A stretch of DNA of 64,000 bases, taken from the sequence record PV730300.1. One strand, given 5' to 3'. Source of the DNA: a phage. Of the stretch, positions 13,013 to 17,244 are shown piece after piece (the first letter of the stretch is position 1; every line of letters begins with the position of its first letter). Made by a program: the position numbers and the translations under genes. The notes under the pieces were generated by a model, which was not told the DNA's origin, did no database searches, and worked only from the letters and a program-made list of their open reading frames with translations.

Positions 13013-14773
13013 ATGTTTCCAATTCCAATATTTACTATTATGACTAGCACTGGTGTCGTTCCTCTGCCAGCAGGTATTGTTAAAAAAGTGATTACTTTAG
13101 ATTACCCAGATAACGCTGGTAATTCTAACAACAGTTTAGCAATTTTGCTTAATGATGGTAGATTGTTTACTCAAGGCGCAAACCTCTTTGGTGAGATTGC
13201 AGATGGAACTCGTAGTGCACGATTCAATAATTTCCACTTAGCTTCTACTGTAGTAGCGGACGTGTTTACCGCAGATCGTTGTTTTGTTATTAAAACTAAC
13301 AGTGGTGGATGGCAATATTCAGGATTGACAGCAGGGTTGGTAGGATCTATAGCAGCAGGTGGTACGGATGCATGTGTAACTACTTGGACCAGCTTTCCAT
13401 CTGTAATAACAGGGACTATTTCTTTAGCCAATCTTAAAGAGGTTAAAGGAGGGTATAACAATACTCTCTGGTTAATGAATAGTGGTGTTCTTTATGGATC
13501 GGGTCAAAACACAGTAGGTAGTTTAGGTGCAAGCACTACTAACGAAGTTTCTACTCCTCGTCAGATAACAAGCGCAGCAGTTGCTTTTGATGCAGGTTAC
13601 AACCAATGCTCTTATGTCAACAATGTGGGAACCTTGCGTGTTTGTGGAGCTAGTAAAGGTTTAGCAGGTAATAATAACACAACAACAGCTTTTGTCAATG
13701 CCAAGATATCCACTACTGAAACAGTGTATGTCAAAGATTACATCAATACAGTTTCCCAGACAATAGTTGTAGGAGATACCTCCGGTGGCACGGGTACAGT
13801 AAACTACTTATATGTTAGATCTAATACAGAAACAACCTACACTAAACTGGACACCTTTGCAGCAGGTTTTTCAACATGGAAATTTCCACCAAGCCGCCAC
13901 TCTTTTTTCGTTGGGATCAATAATTCCTTGTGGGCTATTGGTAAGAACTATACGGCAAACTTAGGTTTGGGATATGATTCTGCGAGCGGAGATCCACTCC
14001 AAGTGGGAAAACCAGTTAAACCTGAAGGAGTGGGTTCCTGGGATATAAACAAGCTCACAAGCGTTCATACGCTGAATATGGATATTACTAACCAATTAGG
14101 TTATCAAGGAACCTTTTTCGTTTATAACGGGAATATGTATTATTCCGGTATTTGGAAAGATGGGAAAGCCTCGTATCTGTTCAATAGTGGTCTAAACTAT
14201 AATAAATTCACACCAATAGCAAGCTCTGTGATTACAGGGGATGTGCTGGCGACTAGCTTAACTACAGATTCTTTAGGAATTTGTATTGTAGGTGGAACTA
14301 AACAGTTGACACATTCTGTTAGCCCAGAAGGAGGTAAACTTTTCAATATTAAATACACTTCTTCTGCCCCTGCAAACATGACAATATCATCTACTGGTTT
14401 AATGACTTTCCATGCAGAAGGTGGTTTTGATGCAGGTATGACAGCCTTAAACGCTGAAGGAACAATTTTATCAGATACCTCTGGAGGATATGCTTCAACA
14501 TTGAGTGTTTACACCCCTAGCTTATCTGCGATGGATGTAGGAACAACACAAACAATGGTAGCAGAAATAACGCCAACAGGGGCAGCAAGCTTACCTGGTA
14601 TGGTTGTTGAGTATACCACTACAGATCCTAGTGTTGCTACAGTAGATCCTACAACTGGTGTAATAACTGGTGTTGGTGACGGTGGTTGTAGGATTGGTTG
14701 CACAGCTACGTATCAAGGTGTTGTTACCGCTTCTGATAGTTCTTATTTAACGGTGAATGCTGTTGCGGGATAA
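13013..14773 (+). CDS. tail fiber / receptor-binding protein with C-terminal Ig-like (Big_2-type) domain (586 aa)
   Basis: C-terminus (...TTDPSVATVDPTTGVITGVGDGG...YQGVVTASDSSYLTVNAV) matches bacterial Ig-like group 2 pattern; last gene of tail block. Confidence 0.55.
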   Translation: MFPIPIFTIMTSTGVVPLPAGIVKKVITLDYPDNAGNSNNSLAILLNDGRLFTQGANLFGEIADGTRSARFNNFHLASTVVADVFTADRCFVIKTNSGGWQYSGLTAGLVGSIAAGGTDACVTTWTSFPSVITGTISLANLKEVKGGYNNTLWLMNSGVLYGSGQNTVGSLGASTTNEVSTPRQITSAAVAFDAGYNQCSYVNNVGTLRVCGASKGLAGNNNTTTAFVNAKISTTETVYVKDYINTVSQTIVVGDTSGGTGTVNYLYVRSNTETTYTKLDTFAAGFSTWKFPPSRHSFFVGINNSLWAIGKNYTANLGLGYDSASGDPLQVGKPVKPEGVGSWDINKLTSVHTLNMDITNQLGYQGTFFVYNGNMYYSGIWKDGKASYLFNSGLNYNKFTPIASSVITGDVLATSLTTDSLGICIVGGTKQLTHSVSPEGGKLFNIKYTSSAPANMTISSTGLMTFHAEGGFDAGMTALNAEGTILSDTSGGYASTLSVYTPSLSAMDVGTTQTMVAEITPTGAASLPGMVVEYTTTDPSVATVDPTTGVITGVGDGGCRIGCTATYQGVVTASDSSYLTVNAVAG

Positions 14774-14778
14774 GAAAA

Positions 14779-14804
14779 GGAGCCAAATGGCTCCTTTCTT
14801 TTAT
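14779..14804. terminator. bidirectional terminator between convergent gene blocks
   Basis: GGAGCC-aaat-GGCTCC hairpin flanked by A-run upstream and T-run downstream; lies between the plus-strand tail block and the minus-strand replication block. Confidence 0.6.
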
Positions 14805-15295
14805 TCAGCGTTCAACCCTTCCCCATGTTCTTGATGCCAAGCTTCATGGTGCAGAGGACACAGCCATAGAACATCTAACGGTTTATCATAATCACAATGA
14901 TGAGCATGAACATCAACAGACCCACACACTTGGCAAGGTTGTTTTATTAACTTTCCATCTCGGAGTGCGTTACCTACAGCTATATGAGCAGAACGTTTTT
15001 TCGGATTCTTTTCGATGTAACGTTTCTTAGCTTCATTAGCCTTATCTTTACCTTTCCCTTTTGCGTAAGCCTCTTTTAAAGCTTTGCGCTCTGGGGTCTG
15101 ATCTCTGTTTTTATCATACTCTTTGTAATATTCAGATTTATCTTTACGATTCTGTTTAACATCTTTCTTATTACATTCTTTGCATTTATTGACGTGACCG
15201 TCAGCCATAGCTTTATGTTTGTAAAATTCAGTGAGGGGCTTTAACACCCCACACTTGAAACAAACCTTAGAAGCAATGCAGGAAGTTTCGACCAT
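14801..15295 (-). CDS. HNH endonuclease (start uncertain; ATG at 15295 chosen)
   Basis: C-terminal CQVCGSVDVHAHHCDYDKPLDVLWLCPLHHEAWH is an HNH motif with zinc-ligand cysteines; the longest ORF (to 15493) overlaps the upstream gene and is probably over-extended. Confidence 0.6.
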   Translation of the reverse strand: MVETSCIASKVCFKCGVLKPLTEFYKHKAMADGHVNKCKECNKKDVKQNRKDKSEYYKEYDKNRDQTPERKALKEAYAKGKGKDKANEAKKRYIEKNPKKRSAHIAVGNALRDGKLIKQPCQVCGSVDVHAHHCDYDKPLDVLWLCPLHHEAWHQEHGEGLNAE

Positions 15296-16196
15296 ATTGC
15301 AGTCCAATAGGGGCAAAAGGAATATCTTCATCGAAGTCCATTGGAGGTTCTTCTTGATTACTTGGAGTTGGTTCTGGTTGTGGTTCAGGTTTCTTAACTT
15401 CTTTCTTCTCTTCTTTCTTAGGTTGTTCTGCGGAACCACGGATGGCAGCAGCAACTTTATCAGACAGAGCCAGAACTTTACGAGCAGAGTCAATCAGATC
15501 TTCTACAGATACAGTCTTAATGGTATGGTCTTTACAAGCATTGAGGATAGCGTGACCAACAGATGCCCCAAGATCATAATCATTAATATCAACGCCACGA
15601 GATTCAGCAATTTCCGATTTCAGTGTGACAGTTGCAGATTGAACAACCCCAGCGATATCGAAAGCATCGCCTTTAACACCATTACGAATCAGTTCCAGTG
15701 CACCATTTACTGCGTGACCAGTTTCCAGACCTACAGTATCACGTTTTTTATAGGATTGCTTAGGAGCATCGTTGGAACCTTTATTGCCAGAAGATTTGTT
15801 AGACTTCTGAACACCATCGGTAGACAATACTGTAATACGAGATTTTTTAGTATTGTAGTAAGTCTTACCGCCTTTATTATCAACGCGATCAATATCAATA
15901 CTTACTTCTACACCTTTTTCAATAGTGATCCAATTATCACCTTCTTTGACTTGCAGGTTTTCATAACCTTCTTTCAGTTCAATGTCACCAAGAGAAATCC
16001 AAACACCTTTCTCATCTGGTTTAGCACCTTTCTCTTTCAGAACAAGAGAAGCTCGGTGAGTTGAAACAATCGTTTTTCCTTCCCAATGAAAAGTTTTAGG
16101 TTCAGCGAATTTATCCAGTTTAACGTAGTCTACGATACCAGTTGCATAAGTTACGGTTTTGCCTTTACGATCAGTTTCAGTATTAATTACGGACAT
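15267..16196 (-). CDS. putative single-stranded DNA-binding protein (309 aa)
   Basis: Basic/Gly-rich linker then acidic DFDEDIPF motif resembling the bacterial SSB C-terminal tip; strong AGAGGAGA RBS; in replication module. Confidence 0.5.
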   Translation of the reverse strand: MSVINTETDRKGKTVTYATGIVDYVKLDKFAEPKTFHWEGKTIVSTHRASLVLKEKGAKPDEKGVWISLGDIELKEGYENLQVKEGDNWITIEKGVEVSIDIDRVDNKGGKTYYNTKKSRITVLSTDGVQKSNKSSGNKGSNDAPKQSYKKRDTVGLETGHAVNGALELIRNGVKGDAFDIAGVVQSATVTLKSEIAESRGVDINDYDLGASVGHAILNACKDHTIKTVSVEDLIDSARKVLALSDKVAAAIRGSAEQPKKEEKKEVKKPEPQPEPTPSNQEEPPMDFDEDIPFAPIGLQYGRNFLHCF

Positions 16197-16650: not shown

Positions 16651-17244
16651 TTACCAAGGAATATCATCTTCTTCCAATCTGGCATCTACTTGAGGTGGAC
16701 GTGGAACCTTAACCTCTTTCACAAAACGAAGATATGGGAAACGTGTAGCAATTTTAATAACATGTTTGGCATCTTCTCTAACATCTTTGTGCAAGAAGCA
16801 GATCCCTGTTTCCAAGGTTGTTTCAAAATCTTTAGAATAATAACAGTCCTTCCCATCAAATGCAGCCTGGCAGATGGACAGATCGAACTCATTTAGAAAG
16901 GTTGTCATTACGCTTGGTTCCATAATCATAAGGTTGCAAAGCTGACCATCACGTTCAAACTCAAAAACGTGTTTAAGACCAGTAACACCTTCATAATTGT
17001 CAGAAGCCTCTTTGTTTCCTAGTTTACGAATATTGGTTCCCATTAAAGCAGATGCAATTAATCCTTGTATTTGTTCTTCAGTCTGATGTGCAGGAAGGGA
17101 TGTATAGAAATCCAGATCACGTCCAGCAATATCAAGAATACGCCAATCACGAACAGCACCGCCAGCCAAGACAGAATTAGGATCAGCGATCTTTAATACG
17201 GTAAGAATCTCTTTGGCAATATTGATTTGTTTTGATTTAGTCAT
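16651..17244 (-). CDS. minimal nucleotidyltransferase-fold protein (197 aa), CCA-adding-enzyme-like head domain
   Basis: LAGGAVRD...DLD matches the GGxVRD / DxD signature of class II tRNA nucleotidyltransferase / poly(A) polymerase heads; C-terminus ends EEDDIPW. Confidence 0.45.
   Translation of the reverse strand: MTKSKQINIAKEILTVLKIADPNSVLAGGAVRDWRILDIAGRDLDFYTSLPAHQTEEQIQGLIASALMGTNIRKLGNKEASDNYEGVTGLKHVFEFERDGQLCNLMIMEPSVMTTFLNEFDLSICQAAFDGKDCYYSKDFETTLETGICFLHKDVREDAKHVIKIATRFPYLRFVKEVKVPRPPQVDARLEEDDIPW

What the first reader, a model, noticed from the sequence alone, without database searches (positions are those of the whole stretch)
15267..15331. SSB tip motif DFDEDIPF lies 15 codons before the stop, in the overlap with an HNH endonuclease gene
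The acidic DFDEDIPF motif is normally the extreme C-terminus of bacterial-type SSBs, where the terminal Phe carboxylate contacts partner proteins. Here the reading frame continues for 15 residues and overlaps the start region of the adjacent HNH gene. This is consistent with an HNH element having inserted at the 3' end of the SSB gene and altered its terminus, or with a frameshift/assembly issue.
Basis: partly seen in the sequence, partly recalled or inferred. Interest (0 to 1): 0.5.

Follow-up and report, generated by a model that had tools for sequence, protein, structure and literature searches.

The report
Nuclease cassette caps phage SSB tail
The 15 extra residues after the SSB "DIPF" tip are real; they are a conserved peptide that arrived together with a mobile nuclease gene from a family that sits almost only behind genes ending in this tip, so the ending is an undescribed feature, not a sequencing error.

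Summary
Observation confirmed. On the minus strand the SSB (15267-16196, 309 aa) carries DFDEDIPF at residues 287-294, then APIGLQYGRNFLHCF and a stop. The downstream nuclease ORF starts at ATG 15295, 29 nt inside the SSB gene.

It is not an assembly error. The same junction occurs in at least four independent Phapecoctavirus isolates and in PsgM04F (84% SSB identity). About 50 related records without the nuclease end at DIPF-stop.

1. The nuclease family is tied to this motif. In 80 IMG/VR loci sampled by nuclease homology, 74 of 78 upstream ORFs end in an acidic ..D-x-P-F tip. The carriers are unrelated: OB-fold SSBs, this SSB type, primase-helicases. ORFs ending DDDIPFN-stop have the nuclease downstream in 73/109 cases; ORFs ending DDDIPF-TAA in 1/136.

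2. The extension is not a random scar. AP[IV]GL[QMP][YH]...[IL][HY]x[ILFM] recurs after the tip in many phage and prophage proteins, some with no nuclease nearby. It is under purifying selection in the SSB frame (pN/pS 0.34, against 0.95 in the nuclease frame) and is predicted disordered.

Best reading: a free-standing homing-endonuclease cassette delivered a portable tail module that caps the tip. Cleavage and the peptide's partner are inferred, not shown.

The parts
15267..16196 (-). SSB-like gene (309 aa, phrog_4477 type): OB-like beta domain 1-125, helical domain 155-253, disordered tail 256-309
   Evidence: ORF. PHROG match E 1.4e-95 ending at residue 294. AF2 model. 99-100% identical to the SSBs of relatives up to F294.
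15315..15338 (-). Acidic tip DFDEDIPF (residues 287-294), equivalent to the E. coli SSB-Ct but not C-terminal here
   Evidence: Matches the E. coli SSB C-terminus. The third positions of the Pro and Phe codons (CCT TTT) co-segregate with the cassette, against CCG TTC in HNH-less genomes.
15270..15314 (-). 15-codon post-tip extension APIGLQYGRNFLHCF, a member of a conserved peptide family AP[IV]GL[QMP][YH]..[IL][HY]x[ILFM]
   Evidence: pS 0.82 / pN 0.28 in this frame. pLDDT below 50, so predicted disordered.
15267..15295 (-). 29-nt overlap between the SSB 3' end (including the TAA stop at 15267-15269) and the nuclease 5' end (ATG 15295-15293 lies inside the codons for Q-Y-G)
   Evidence: The same overlap is annotated in PsgM04F and morffagbaw.
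14801..15295 (-). Free-standing nuclease gene (164 aa, phrog_2340 'endonuclease')
   Evidence: 980+ homologous clusters. It is the only copy in the window.
15173..15271 (-). N-terminal four-Cys zinc ribbon of the nuclease (residues 9-41; C12, C15, C38, C41 invariant). This module is shared with nucleases that carry a different catalytic domain (JES2013), and is probably the DNA-binding part
14825..14935 (-). C-terminal beta-beta-alpha region with invariant C121, C124, H132, H133, D135, C146, H150, H154 (HNH-like motif HH..LCxxHH..H)
14804..15314 (-). DNA present here but absent from HNH-less relatives (about 511 nt). It replaces their stop codon plus a 30-nt spacer (TGATCTTATTGATTTATAAAGAGTTTTTAT)
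   Evidence: Alignments and junction print-outs.
14776..14797 (.). Hairpin terminator shared by the convergent tail-protein and SSB/nuclease transcription units. It marks the right-hand boundary of the cassette and is conserved in all relatives

Best explanation
The window comes from a phAPEC8-like E. coli phage (Phapecoctavirus). A promoter-less, free-standing HNH-type endonuclease cassette has replaced the stop codon and the 30-nt spacer behind the SSB gene.

The nuclease belongs to a large family that sits almost exclusively just downstream of genes whose products end in the SSB-type acidic tip (..D-D-[IVLT]-P-F), whatever the rest of that protein is. The most likely mechanism is intron-less homing. 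The enzyme cuts tip-plus-stop DNA in genomes that lack it, and repair from the donor copies in the cassette together with the flanking donor codons.

In the enterobacterial branch, the donor DNA just after the Phe codon is an in-frame module of 14-17 codons. That module is a conserved peptide in its own right. In this phage it has three consequences:
1. It removes the tip-plus-stop sequence, which is inferred to give self-immunity.
2. It places the nuclease ATG inside the SSB reading frame, so nuclease translation is coupled to SSB translation or occluded by it.
3. It leaves Phe294 without a free alpha-carboxylate and adds a disordered linear motif.

So the SSB probably no longer docks to host SSB-Ct pockets in the canonical way and instead presents a different, still unidentified binding surface.

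Shown: the anatomy, the linkage, the family-wide association with the tip, and selection on the peptide. Inferred: cleavage specificity, the homing mechanism, and the peptide's effect on partner binding.
For: 1. Real and heritable. The junction is identical in ZCKP1, Mt1B1_P17 and nieznany, and in PsgM04F at only 84% SSB identity.

2. Presence/absence polymorphism at one site. About 53 records carry the HNH-less junction with DIPF-stop. There are two nuclease alleles and five deletion derivatives.

3. The left boundary lies in the Pro-Phe codons. CCW TTT occurs in all five cassette or remnant genomes, against CCG TTC in both HNH-less ones.

4. The same cassette sits behind a different gene. 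The Seunavirus primase-helicase ends DFDNDTPF* in EC152 and PVP-SE1, but DFDNDTPF-APIGLQYANHAIYAL* plus the nuclease in GAP31 and KE23.

5. About 72-74% nucleotide identity across the tip, extension and nuclease 5' third with unrelated Drexlerviridae and Vequintavirinae phages.

6. Family-wide association. 74 of 78 upstream ORFs end in an acidic tip. The nuclease lies downstream of 73/109 DDDIPFN* ORFs against 1/136 DDDIPF-TAA ORFs.

7. The peptide is selected in the SSB frame: pN/pS 0.34, against 0.95 and 1.78 in the other two frames. TAC variants abolish the nuclease ATG yet keep the Tyr. The IYAL ending is encoded by many different codon sets.

8. The peptide also occurs without any nuclease. 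This is seen across the sampled phi92-like (Justusliebigvirus) genomes, in the PVP-SE1 SSB, and in lambdoid prophage ssb alleles found in 169-409 of 5426 E. coli genomes.

9. No sigma-70-like promoter lies between the SSB and the nuclease gene.

10. SSB-Ct pockets anchor the alpha-carboxyl of the terminal Phe (PMC10164576). Free-standing endonucleases next to their target gene, promoter-less cassettes and co-conversion are established for T4, for example segG beside gene 32 (PMC2988022).
Against: No cleavage assay or cross exists, so the target site and even nuclease activity are inferred. The protein fails Pfam, NCBIfam and PDB sequence searches, and the fold searches are not significant.

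A strict gene neighbourhood could instead mean a functional partnership between the nuclease and tip-bearing proteins.

The type-2 allele, and 27 of 74 sampled loci, keep a terminal Phe. An extension is therefore not obligatory for carrying the nuclease.

The peptide is common in prophages that show no trace of the nuclease, so cassette and peptide may be only loosely coupled.

The DDDIPFN versus DDDIPF comparison uses contigs that are not phylogenetically independent.

Nothing here shows what the peptide binds, or that tip function is lost.
Confidence: 0.6

Rival explanations
1. Sequencing, assembly or frameshift artefact: the true gene ends at DIPF-stop and the extension is an error.
For: Cellular SSBs, and most relatives of this phage, end at the Phe.
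Against: There is no stop codon or frameshift signature. The identical 45-nt extension occurs in at least four other independently sequenced phages and, with synonymous differences, in dozens of unrelated phages.
Confidence: 0.02
2. Neutral read-through scar: the nuclease gene landed on the stop codon and the SSB frame simply runs on through meaningless cassette DNA until the next stop.
For: The extension starts exactly where the novel DNA starts. Some environmental loci carry odd, unrelated extensions after the tip, such as DIPFRHRHWLS and DIPFMWMLPLALAV....
Against: The peptide is conserved across very divergent DNA: pS 0.82, pN 0.28, with codon third positions free. It is retained across the sampled genomes of a genus that has no nuclease gene, and in prophages. 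The overlapping nuclease frame is the less constrained one.
Confidence: 0.08
3. The conservation serves nuclease expression, not the SSB: the 45 nt hold the ribosome-binding site and start codon, or encode a cis-acting nascent peptide that controls translation of the overlapping nuclease gene.
For: ATG1 lies in the Q-Y-G codons and ATG2 in the I-Y-A codons of many versions. There is no separate promoter. A conserved hairpin lies about 20 nt after the SSB stop.
Against: Tyr is kept with TAC, which destroys the ATG (L009, L017, L022, L023). The residues upstream of the ATG (A-P-I-G-L-Q) are conserved as protein. The peptide persists where no nuclease gene follows.
Confidence: 0.12
4. The nuclease is not a selfish homing element but a working partner of tip-bearing replication proteins (for example recruited by the tip), and the gene order reflects co-function.
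For: 95% of sampled nuclease genes follow a tip-encoding gene. The SSB tip is a known recruitment handle.
Against: Presence and absence vary among genomes about 98% identical. Degenerate and deleted copies exist. The junction at the last codons is identical behind non-homologous genes. The N-terminal module is swapped between different nuclease domains. These are hallmarks of mobile endonuclease genes.
Confidence: 0.15

Closest known systems
T4 SegG (free-standing GIY-YIG homing endonuclease between genes 32 and 59, which cleaves the gene 32 SSB gene of T2)
   Same: A promoter-less endonuclease gene lies next to the phage SSB gene. Its distribution among relatives is patchy and adjacent SSB-gene markers are co-inherited (PMC2988022).
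   Different: The nuclease class differs (HNH-like with an N-terminal zinc ribbon, not GIY-YIG). Here the gene abuts and overlaps the 3' end of the target ORF and changes the protein's C-terminus. The family follows a short motif (the tip codons) across non-homologous genes rather than following one gene. Cleavage is not demonstrated.
T4 mobE and other free-standing HNH homing endonucleases
   Same: HNH-type, intergenic, co-transcribed with the neighbouring conserved gene, and associated with degenerate copies.
   Different: mob genes do not extend the neighbouring ORF. This protein matches no Pfam HNH model, and its domain order is zinc ribbon first, nuclease last.
E. coli SSB C-terminal tip (SSB-Ct, DFDDDIPF-COOH)
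   Same: Near-identical octapeptide preceded by PP-M and a disordered acidic/proline linker.
   Different: Partner pockets use the free alpha-carboxylate of the last Phe. Here the Phe is followed by 15 residues. The DNA-binding body belongs to a different family (phrog_4477, no PF00436 hit).
Bas52_0087, the SSB-like protein of a BASEL-collection E. coli phage, with an FDDDIPF motif, that triggers DRT10
   Same: An SSB-like phage protein with OB-fold domains, a disordered C-terminal region and a host-like tip motif, proposed to interfere with host ExoI (bioRxiv 10.64898/2026.04.29.721553). Homology to the window SSB was not tested here.
   Different: That work does not discuss a post-tip extension. 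Whether the extension changes defence triggering is unknown.
Inteins and group I introns carrying homing endonucleases
   Same: A mobile nuclease gene rides inside or next to a conserved essential coding sequence and must leave the host protein functional.
   Different: There is no splicing of any kind here. The added residues stay on the protein, as a conserved tail.

Membership tests
Free-standing (intron-less) homing endonuclease gene | Endonuclease ORF outside any intron or intein, adjacent to a conserved gene | tested here: met
   164-aa ORF directly behind the SSB gene, overlapping it by 29 nt.
Free-standing (intron-less) homing endonuclease gene | Presence/absence polymorphism at one site among otherwise near-identical genomes, with degenerate or deleted copies | tested here: met
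   About 53 records lack it, about 10 have it, and 5 carry a deletion remnant, all with about 98% identical flanks. An environmental remnant VCFKCGAEKPL* was also found.
Free-standing (intron-less) homing endonuclease gene | Co-conversion of flanking markers with the endonuclease gene | tested here: inconclusive
   The last two synonymous sites of the SSB (CCW TTT against CCG TTC) co-segregate with the cassette in 7 genomes. No longer tract is visible.
Free-standing (intron-less) homing endonuclease gene | Site-specific cleavage of the endonuclease-less allele, and super-Mendelian inheritance in mixed infection | not testable with these tools
   Needs enzyme assays and phage crosses.
HNH / His-Me finger (beta-beta-alpha-metal) nucleases | Match to curated HNH profiles | tested here: not met
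   No Pfam or NCBIfam hit at E<=0.01 and no PDB sequence hit. Only PHROG families named endonuclease, endonuclease VII or HNH endonuclease match.
HNH / His-Me finger (beta-beta-alpha-metal) nucleases | beta-beta-alpha element carrying the catalytic His and a distal metal-binding His, often braced by a CxxC...CxxC/H zinc site | tested here: inconclusive
Bacterial-type SSB (PF00436, homotetrameric OB fold) | Profile match of the DNA-binding domain | tested here: not met
   No Pfam hit. The family is phrog_4477, with an OB-like beta domain plus a helical domain in the AF2 model.
SSB-Ct type interaction tip | Acidic D-D-D-I-P-F sequence at the end of a disordered linker | tested here: met
   DFDEDIPF follows a 30-residue low-complexity linker with pLDDT below 50.
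SSB-Ct type interaction tip | The Phe is the last residue, so its alpha-carboxylate is free for the partner's basic lip | tested here: not met
   15 residues follow F294. The requirement itself is taken from PMC10164576.
Post-tip extension peptide family (defined here) | 14-17 residues directly after the tip Phe matching AP[IVMF][GTC]L[QMP][YHF]x(3-5)[ILM][HYN]x[ILFMV] | tested here: met
   The window peptide is APIGLQYGRNFLHCF. There are 24 distinct DNA versions in fetched loci, 25 of 108 homologue clusters, about 55 representative-library hits, and 227 cultured-phage records that match a 27-aa tip-plus-extension probe at E<=0.01 (149 over at least 80% of it).

The most novel reading that the evidence does not exclude
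An unrecognised family of homing endonucleases homes on the few codons that encode the universal SSB acidic tip. This lets it jump between non-homologous replication genes and unrelated phages. In doing so it spreads a portable 15-residue interaction module that caps the tip and rewires which host or phage partners the SSB recruits. One example would be blocking ExoI and other SSB-Ct clients, or escaping defence systems that sense phage SSB proteins.
Probability: 0.3. Interest if true: 0.8.

Novelty: new variant of a known kind. Interest (0 to 1): 0.62.

Why it matters
The SSB C-terminal tip is a central protein-recruitment handle in bacterial DNA metabolism. Phage SSB-like proteins that carry it are emerging as triggers of anti-phage defence.

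This analysis points to two things the searchable literature does not describe.

- A large nuclease family (980+ clusters) appears dedicated to the DNA encoding that tip. That would explain how it can sit behind unrelated genes.
- A conserved peptide follows the tip in model phages and prophages, including rV5, phi92 and lambdoid phages, and in prophage ssb alleles in 169-409 (about 3-8%) of complete E. coli genomes. Databases annotate these proteins as plain 'ssb' or 'hypothetical protein'.

If the peptide changes partner choice, natural pairs of near-identical phages with and without it (this phage against ESCO13) are ready-made material to test what a free SSB tip does for a phage.

It also matters for annotation and for recombineering tools that pick systems by SSB C-terminal sequence.

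Tried and rejected
- Pfam, NCBIfam and PDB sequence searches of both proteins gave nothing beyond the tip itself.
- AF2 of the SSB with a 50-sequence alignment was run to see whether the extension docks onto the folded domains. It is predicted disordered, so there is no intramolecular clue.
The 48-residue profile search returned only short gene fragments. These revealed the wider peptide family but gave no counts.
- Literature searches for the peptide strings and for SSB plus homing endonuclease found no description.
- Frameshifting or read-through restoring a terminal Phe was considered and rejected. There is no in-frame stop to read through, and the +1 frame is simply the nuclease ORF.
- A beta-clamp-binding motif, a PIP-box and an ssrA-like degron (the ..YAL/YALA endings) were considered from memory. 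The spacing does not fit the first two and nothing tests the third.
- A first regex for zinc ribbons under-counted tip-bearing loci. The ORF-based count is the one used.

Full report
**What is there**

On the minus strand, ORF 15267..16196 encodes a 309-aa protein ending ...EEPPMDFDEDIPFAPIGLQYGRNFLHCF*.
- DFDEDIPF is residues 287-294 (window 15338..15315).
- The 15 extra codons occupy 15314..15270 and the TAA stop is 15269..15267.

A second minus-strand ORF, in the +1 frame, runs down to 14801. Homologues are conserved from K10 onward and C12/C15 are invariant. The only start codon upstream of these is ATG 15295..15293. The nuclease is therefore 164 aa and overlaps the SSB gene by 29 nt.

**Origin of the window and identity of the two proteins**

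The region is 98% identical to Phapecoctavirus (phAPEC8-like, Stephanstirmvirinae) E. coli phages.

The SSB has no Pfam hit. It belongs to phrog_4477, and every PHROG match ends at residue 294. Only its last about 26 residues resemble E. coli SSB. AF2 with a 50-sequence alignment gives three parts:
- an OB-like beta domain, residues 1-125;
- a helical domain, residues 155-253, at pLDDT about 90;
- a disordered tail, residues 256-309, with the extension below pLDDT 50.

**Not an artefact; linked to the nuclease gene**

ESCO5 and ESCO13 lack the nuclease gene, and their otherwise 99-100% identical SSBs end DFDDDIPF*. ZCKP1 and Mt1B1_P17 have the gene and the identical 15-residue extension. So does PsgM04F, whose SSB is only 84% identical.

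At the DNA level the HNH-less genomes read ..ATT CCG TTC TGA + 30 nt + terminator. The window reads ..ATT CCT TTT GCC CCT.. + about 511 nt + the same terminator.

A junction-specific query found about 53 records with the HNH-less arrangement. Five architectures exist in the genus:
- no nuclease;
- type-1 nuclease plus extension (the window, Mt1B1_P17, ZCKP1, nieznany, PsgM04F, and probably the more distant Citrobacter phage Tr1, whose junction was not read);
- type-2 nuclease with a different N-terminal third, starting on the SSB stop codon and leaving DIPF terminal (nepoznato, AV125, phiWec188/190);
- extension retained with the nuclease deleted to MVETSCIASKVCFKC|MRLNAE, read in DIJ07P2; 536P1, vB_Ec-G1, DE16 and ECO340P2 give the same short two-piece match;
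- variants of these.

In a seven-genome alignment, the only SSB sites that co-segregate with the cassette are the third positions of the Pro and Phe codons.

**The same block in unrelated phages and behind a different gene**

A sensitive DNA search with the nuclease-plus-extension region hit the tip, extension and nuclease 5' third at 72-74% identity in Drexlerviridae (ACG-M12, phiEB49), other siphophages, Vequintavirinae and others. Their upstream proteins end:
- ..FEDDIPFAPIGLQYGMSNIYVL*
- ..DFDDDIPFASVGLQYGKHRIYAL*
- ..DFCDDIPFAPVGLQYGKSRIYAL*

In Seunavirus the carrier is the primase-helicase. EC152 and PVP-SE1 lack the nuclease and end ..DFDNDTPF* or ..DMDEDTPF*. GAP31 and KE23 have it and end ..TPF-APIGLQYANHAIY[AV]L*.

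JES2013 has the same 45-residue zinc-ribbon N-terminus fused to a different nuclease body.

**The nuclease family follows the tip motif**

I sampled 80 IMG/VR loci by nuclease homology (564+ relatives). Of the 78 with an upstream same-strand ORF, 74 have that ORF ending in an acidic ..P[FW] tip within about 80 nt of the nuclease gene. The tip is terminal in 27, followed by one residue (mostly Asn) in 38, by 2-9 residues in 4 and by 10-20 in 5.

Sampling the other way gave the same picture. ORFs of at least 60 codons ending DDDIPFN* have the nuclease downstream in 73 of 109 cases. ORFs ending DDDIPF-TAA have it in 1 of 136 (Fisher p about 1e-33). The contigs are not independent, so the p-value is only indicative.

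**The extension is a conserved peptide, not a scar**

A degenerate DNA scan and profile searches recovered the peptide on very different carriers:
- canonical OB-fold SSBs;
- Drexler-type SSBs;
- this SSB family;
- 335-480-aa acidic proteins;
- DUF669-like proteins.

Within the window SSB's own family, 25 of 108 90%-identity clusters carry an extension. Near-identical tails occur with and without it (for example ..FEDIPF* against ..FEDIPFAPIGLQYRELLYAM*), which indicates repeated gain or loss exactly after the Phe.

Codon tables show free third positions: Ala GCC/GCT/GCA, Gly all four codons, Leu CTG/TTG/CTT/TTA. Tyr TAC destroys the nuclease ATG yet the Tyr is kept. The IYAL ending, which my search pattern did not constrain, uses many codon sets.

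Nei-Gojobori estimates over 24 distinct versions give pS 0.82 and pN 0.28 (ratio 0.34) in the SSB frame. The ratio is 0.95 in the nuclease frame and 1.78 in the third frame.

The peptide also persists without any nuclease gene:
- PD06 and other sampled phi92-like phages (five synonymous and no non-synonymous differences from the window);
- the PVP-SE1 SSB;
- lambdoid phages HK75 and mEp235;
- prophage ssb alleles, followed by abc2, in 169-409 of 5426 complete E. coli genomes.

A tblastn search with a 27-aa tip-plus-extension probe matched 227 cultured-phage records at E<=0.01 (149 over at least 80% of the probe), rV5 and phi92 among them.

**Mechanistic reading**

Established background:
- SSB-Ct pockets bury the terminal Phe and anchor its alpha-carboxyl on a basic lip (PMC10164576).
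- Free-standing homing endonucleases sit next to the conserved gene they cut. They are often promoter-less and spread with co-conversion of flanking markers. T4 segG, beside gene 32, is the SSB-linked precedent (PMC2988022).

On this basis the best-supported model is a homing-endonuclease cassette whose family uses the tip-plus-stop DNA as its landing site. No sigma-70-like promoter separates the SSB and nuclease genes, and the nuclease ATG lies inside the SSB frame.

The 15-codon module came in as donor flank. It simultaneously removes the tip-plus-stop sequence and caps the tip with a disordered, selected linear motif.

What that motif binds is unknown. Because the body of the carrier protein varies freely, a host protein or the nuclease itself is the likeliest partner.

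Phage SSB-like proteins with this tip have recently been linked to host ExoI and to DRT10 activation. That makes defence evasion or partner rewiring a testable idea, but nothing here shows it.

**Rivals**

- Assembly error is excluded.
- A neutral scar is contradicted by the selection pattern.
- Conservation for nuclease expression alone is contradicted by the TAC variants and by carriers without a nuclease.
- A functional partnership between nuclease and SSB, rather than homing, remains possible. It fits poorly with the presence/absence polymorphism, the remnants and the domain swapping.

**Novelty**

Free-standing HNH endonucleases next to phage replication genes are known. Two things appear undescribed in the searchable literature: a family tied to a short protein-motif-encoding sequence across non-homologous genes, and a conserved in-frame tail that caps the SSB tip. 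I rate this a new variant of a known kind, of moderate to high interest. The key mechanistic steps are still inferred.

Noticed in passing
window 16651-17244 (-): The 197-aa nucleotidyltransferase two genes upstream of the SSB ends ...RLEEDDIPW*, an SSB-tip-like acidic motif with Trp in place of Phe. It is conserved in ESCO13.
   Followed up: partly
window 13013-14773 (+), junction near 14768-14775: The tail protein lacks about 310 C-terminal residues that are present in ESCO5, Mt1B1_P17, DIJ07P2 and nepoznato. Relatives read GCGGGA|AAGGAGTTAGCT...(about 930 nt)...TATAAA|TAAGAAAAGGAGCC, whereas the window reads GCGGGA|TAAGAAAAGGAGCC. None of the 40 best phage records listed spans this junction in a single aligned piece (32 more were not examined). 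It lies right beside the cassette, so it could be a repair-associated deletion or an assembly issue.
   Followed up: partly
window about 15225-15246 (-); L007, L011, L035, L067: A hairpin inside the nuclease codons C-G-x-x-K-P, about 20 nt after the SSB stop. It is GGGGCT-GAAA-AGCCCC in many loci and weaker (GGGG-TGTTAAAG-CCCC) in the window. It survives in a locus where the nuclease is truncated (L035). It may be an RNA element that regulates the nuclease.
   Followed up: no
IMG/VR loci L041-L117 and L118-L237: Many environmental phage SSB-like genes end ..DDIPFN* with the DNA ATH CCT TTT AAT/AAC TAA/TAG. A similar CC(C)TTTTAATTA element is sometimes repeated just downstream (L045, L047, L069). 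This suggests a cassette end that shares microhomology with the Pro-Phe codons.
   Followed up: partly
L026, L027 (EC152, PVP-SE1) and L011, L028: The Seunavirus primase-helicase natively ends in an SSB-like tip (DFDNDTPF* or DMDEDTPF*). A replicative helicase thus seems to carry the SSB recruitment handle.
   Followed up: partly
L012 (JES2013 ORF198): It has the same about 45-residue zinc-ribbon N-terminus as the window nuclease, fused to an unrelated about 160-residue C-terminal body annotated endonuclease VII. This indicates modular exchange of the presumed DNA-binding head.
   Followed up: no
L007 2242-2245, L006: The type-2 nuclease allele of nepoznato/AV125 apparently starts at a TTG that overlaps the SSB TGA (TTTTGATC). 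In phiWec188 the annotated start lies downstream of the first CxxC, so that copy may be N-terminally damaged or mis-annotated.
   Followed up: no
window 15764-15768 region (SSB codons 143-144) and codon 290: Compared with six relatives, the window SSB lacks one Ala codon (a 3-nt deletion, alignment columns 429-431). It has D290E inside the tip, a change shared with phiWec188. Nepoznato has D291N.
   Followed up: no
L029, L033: Several prophage ssb genes carrying the extension are split into two called ORFs (an OB domain and a tail fragment). This suggests frameshifted or decaying copies, and it explains why the short-profile protein search returned only fragments.
   Followed up: no
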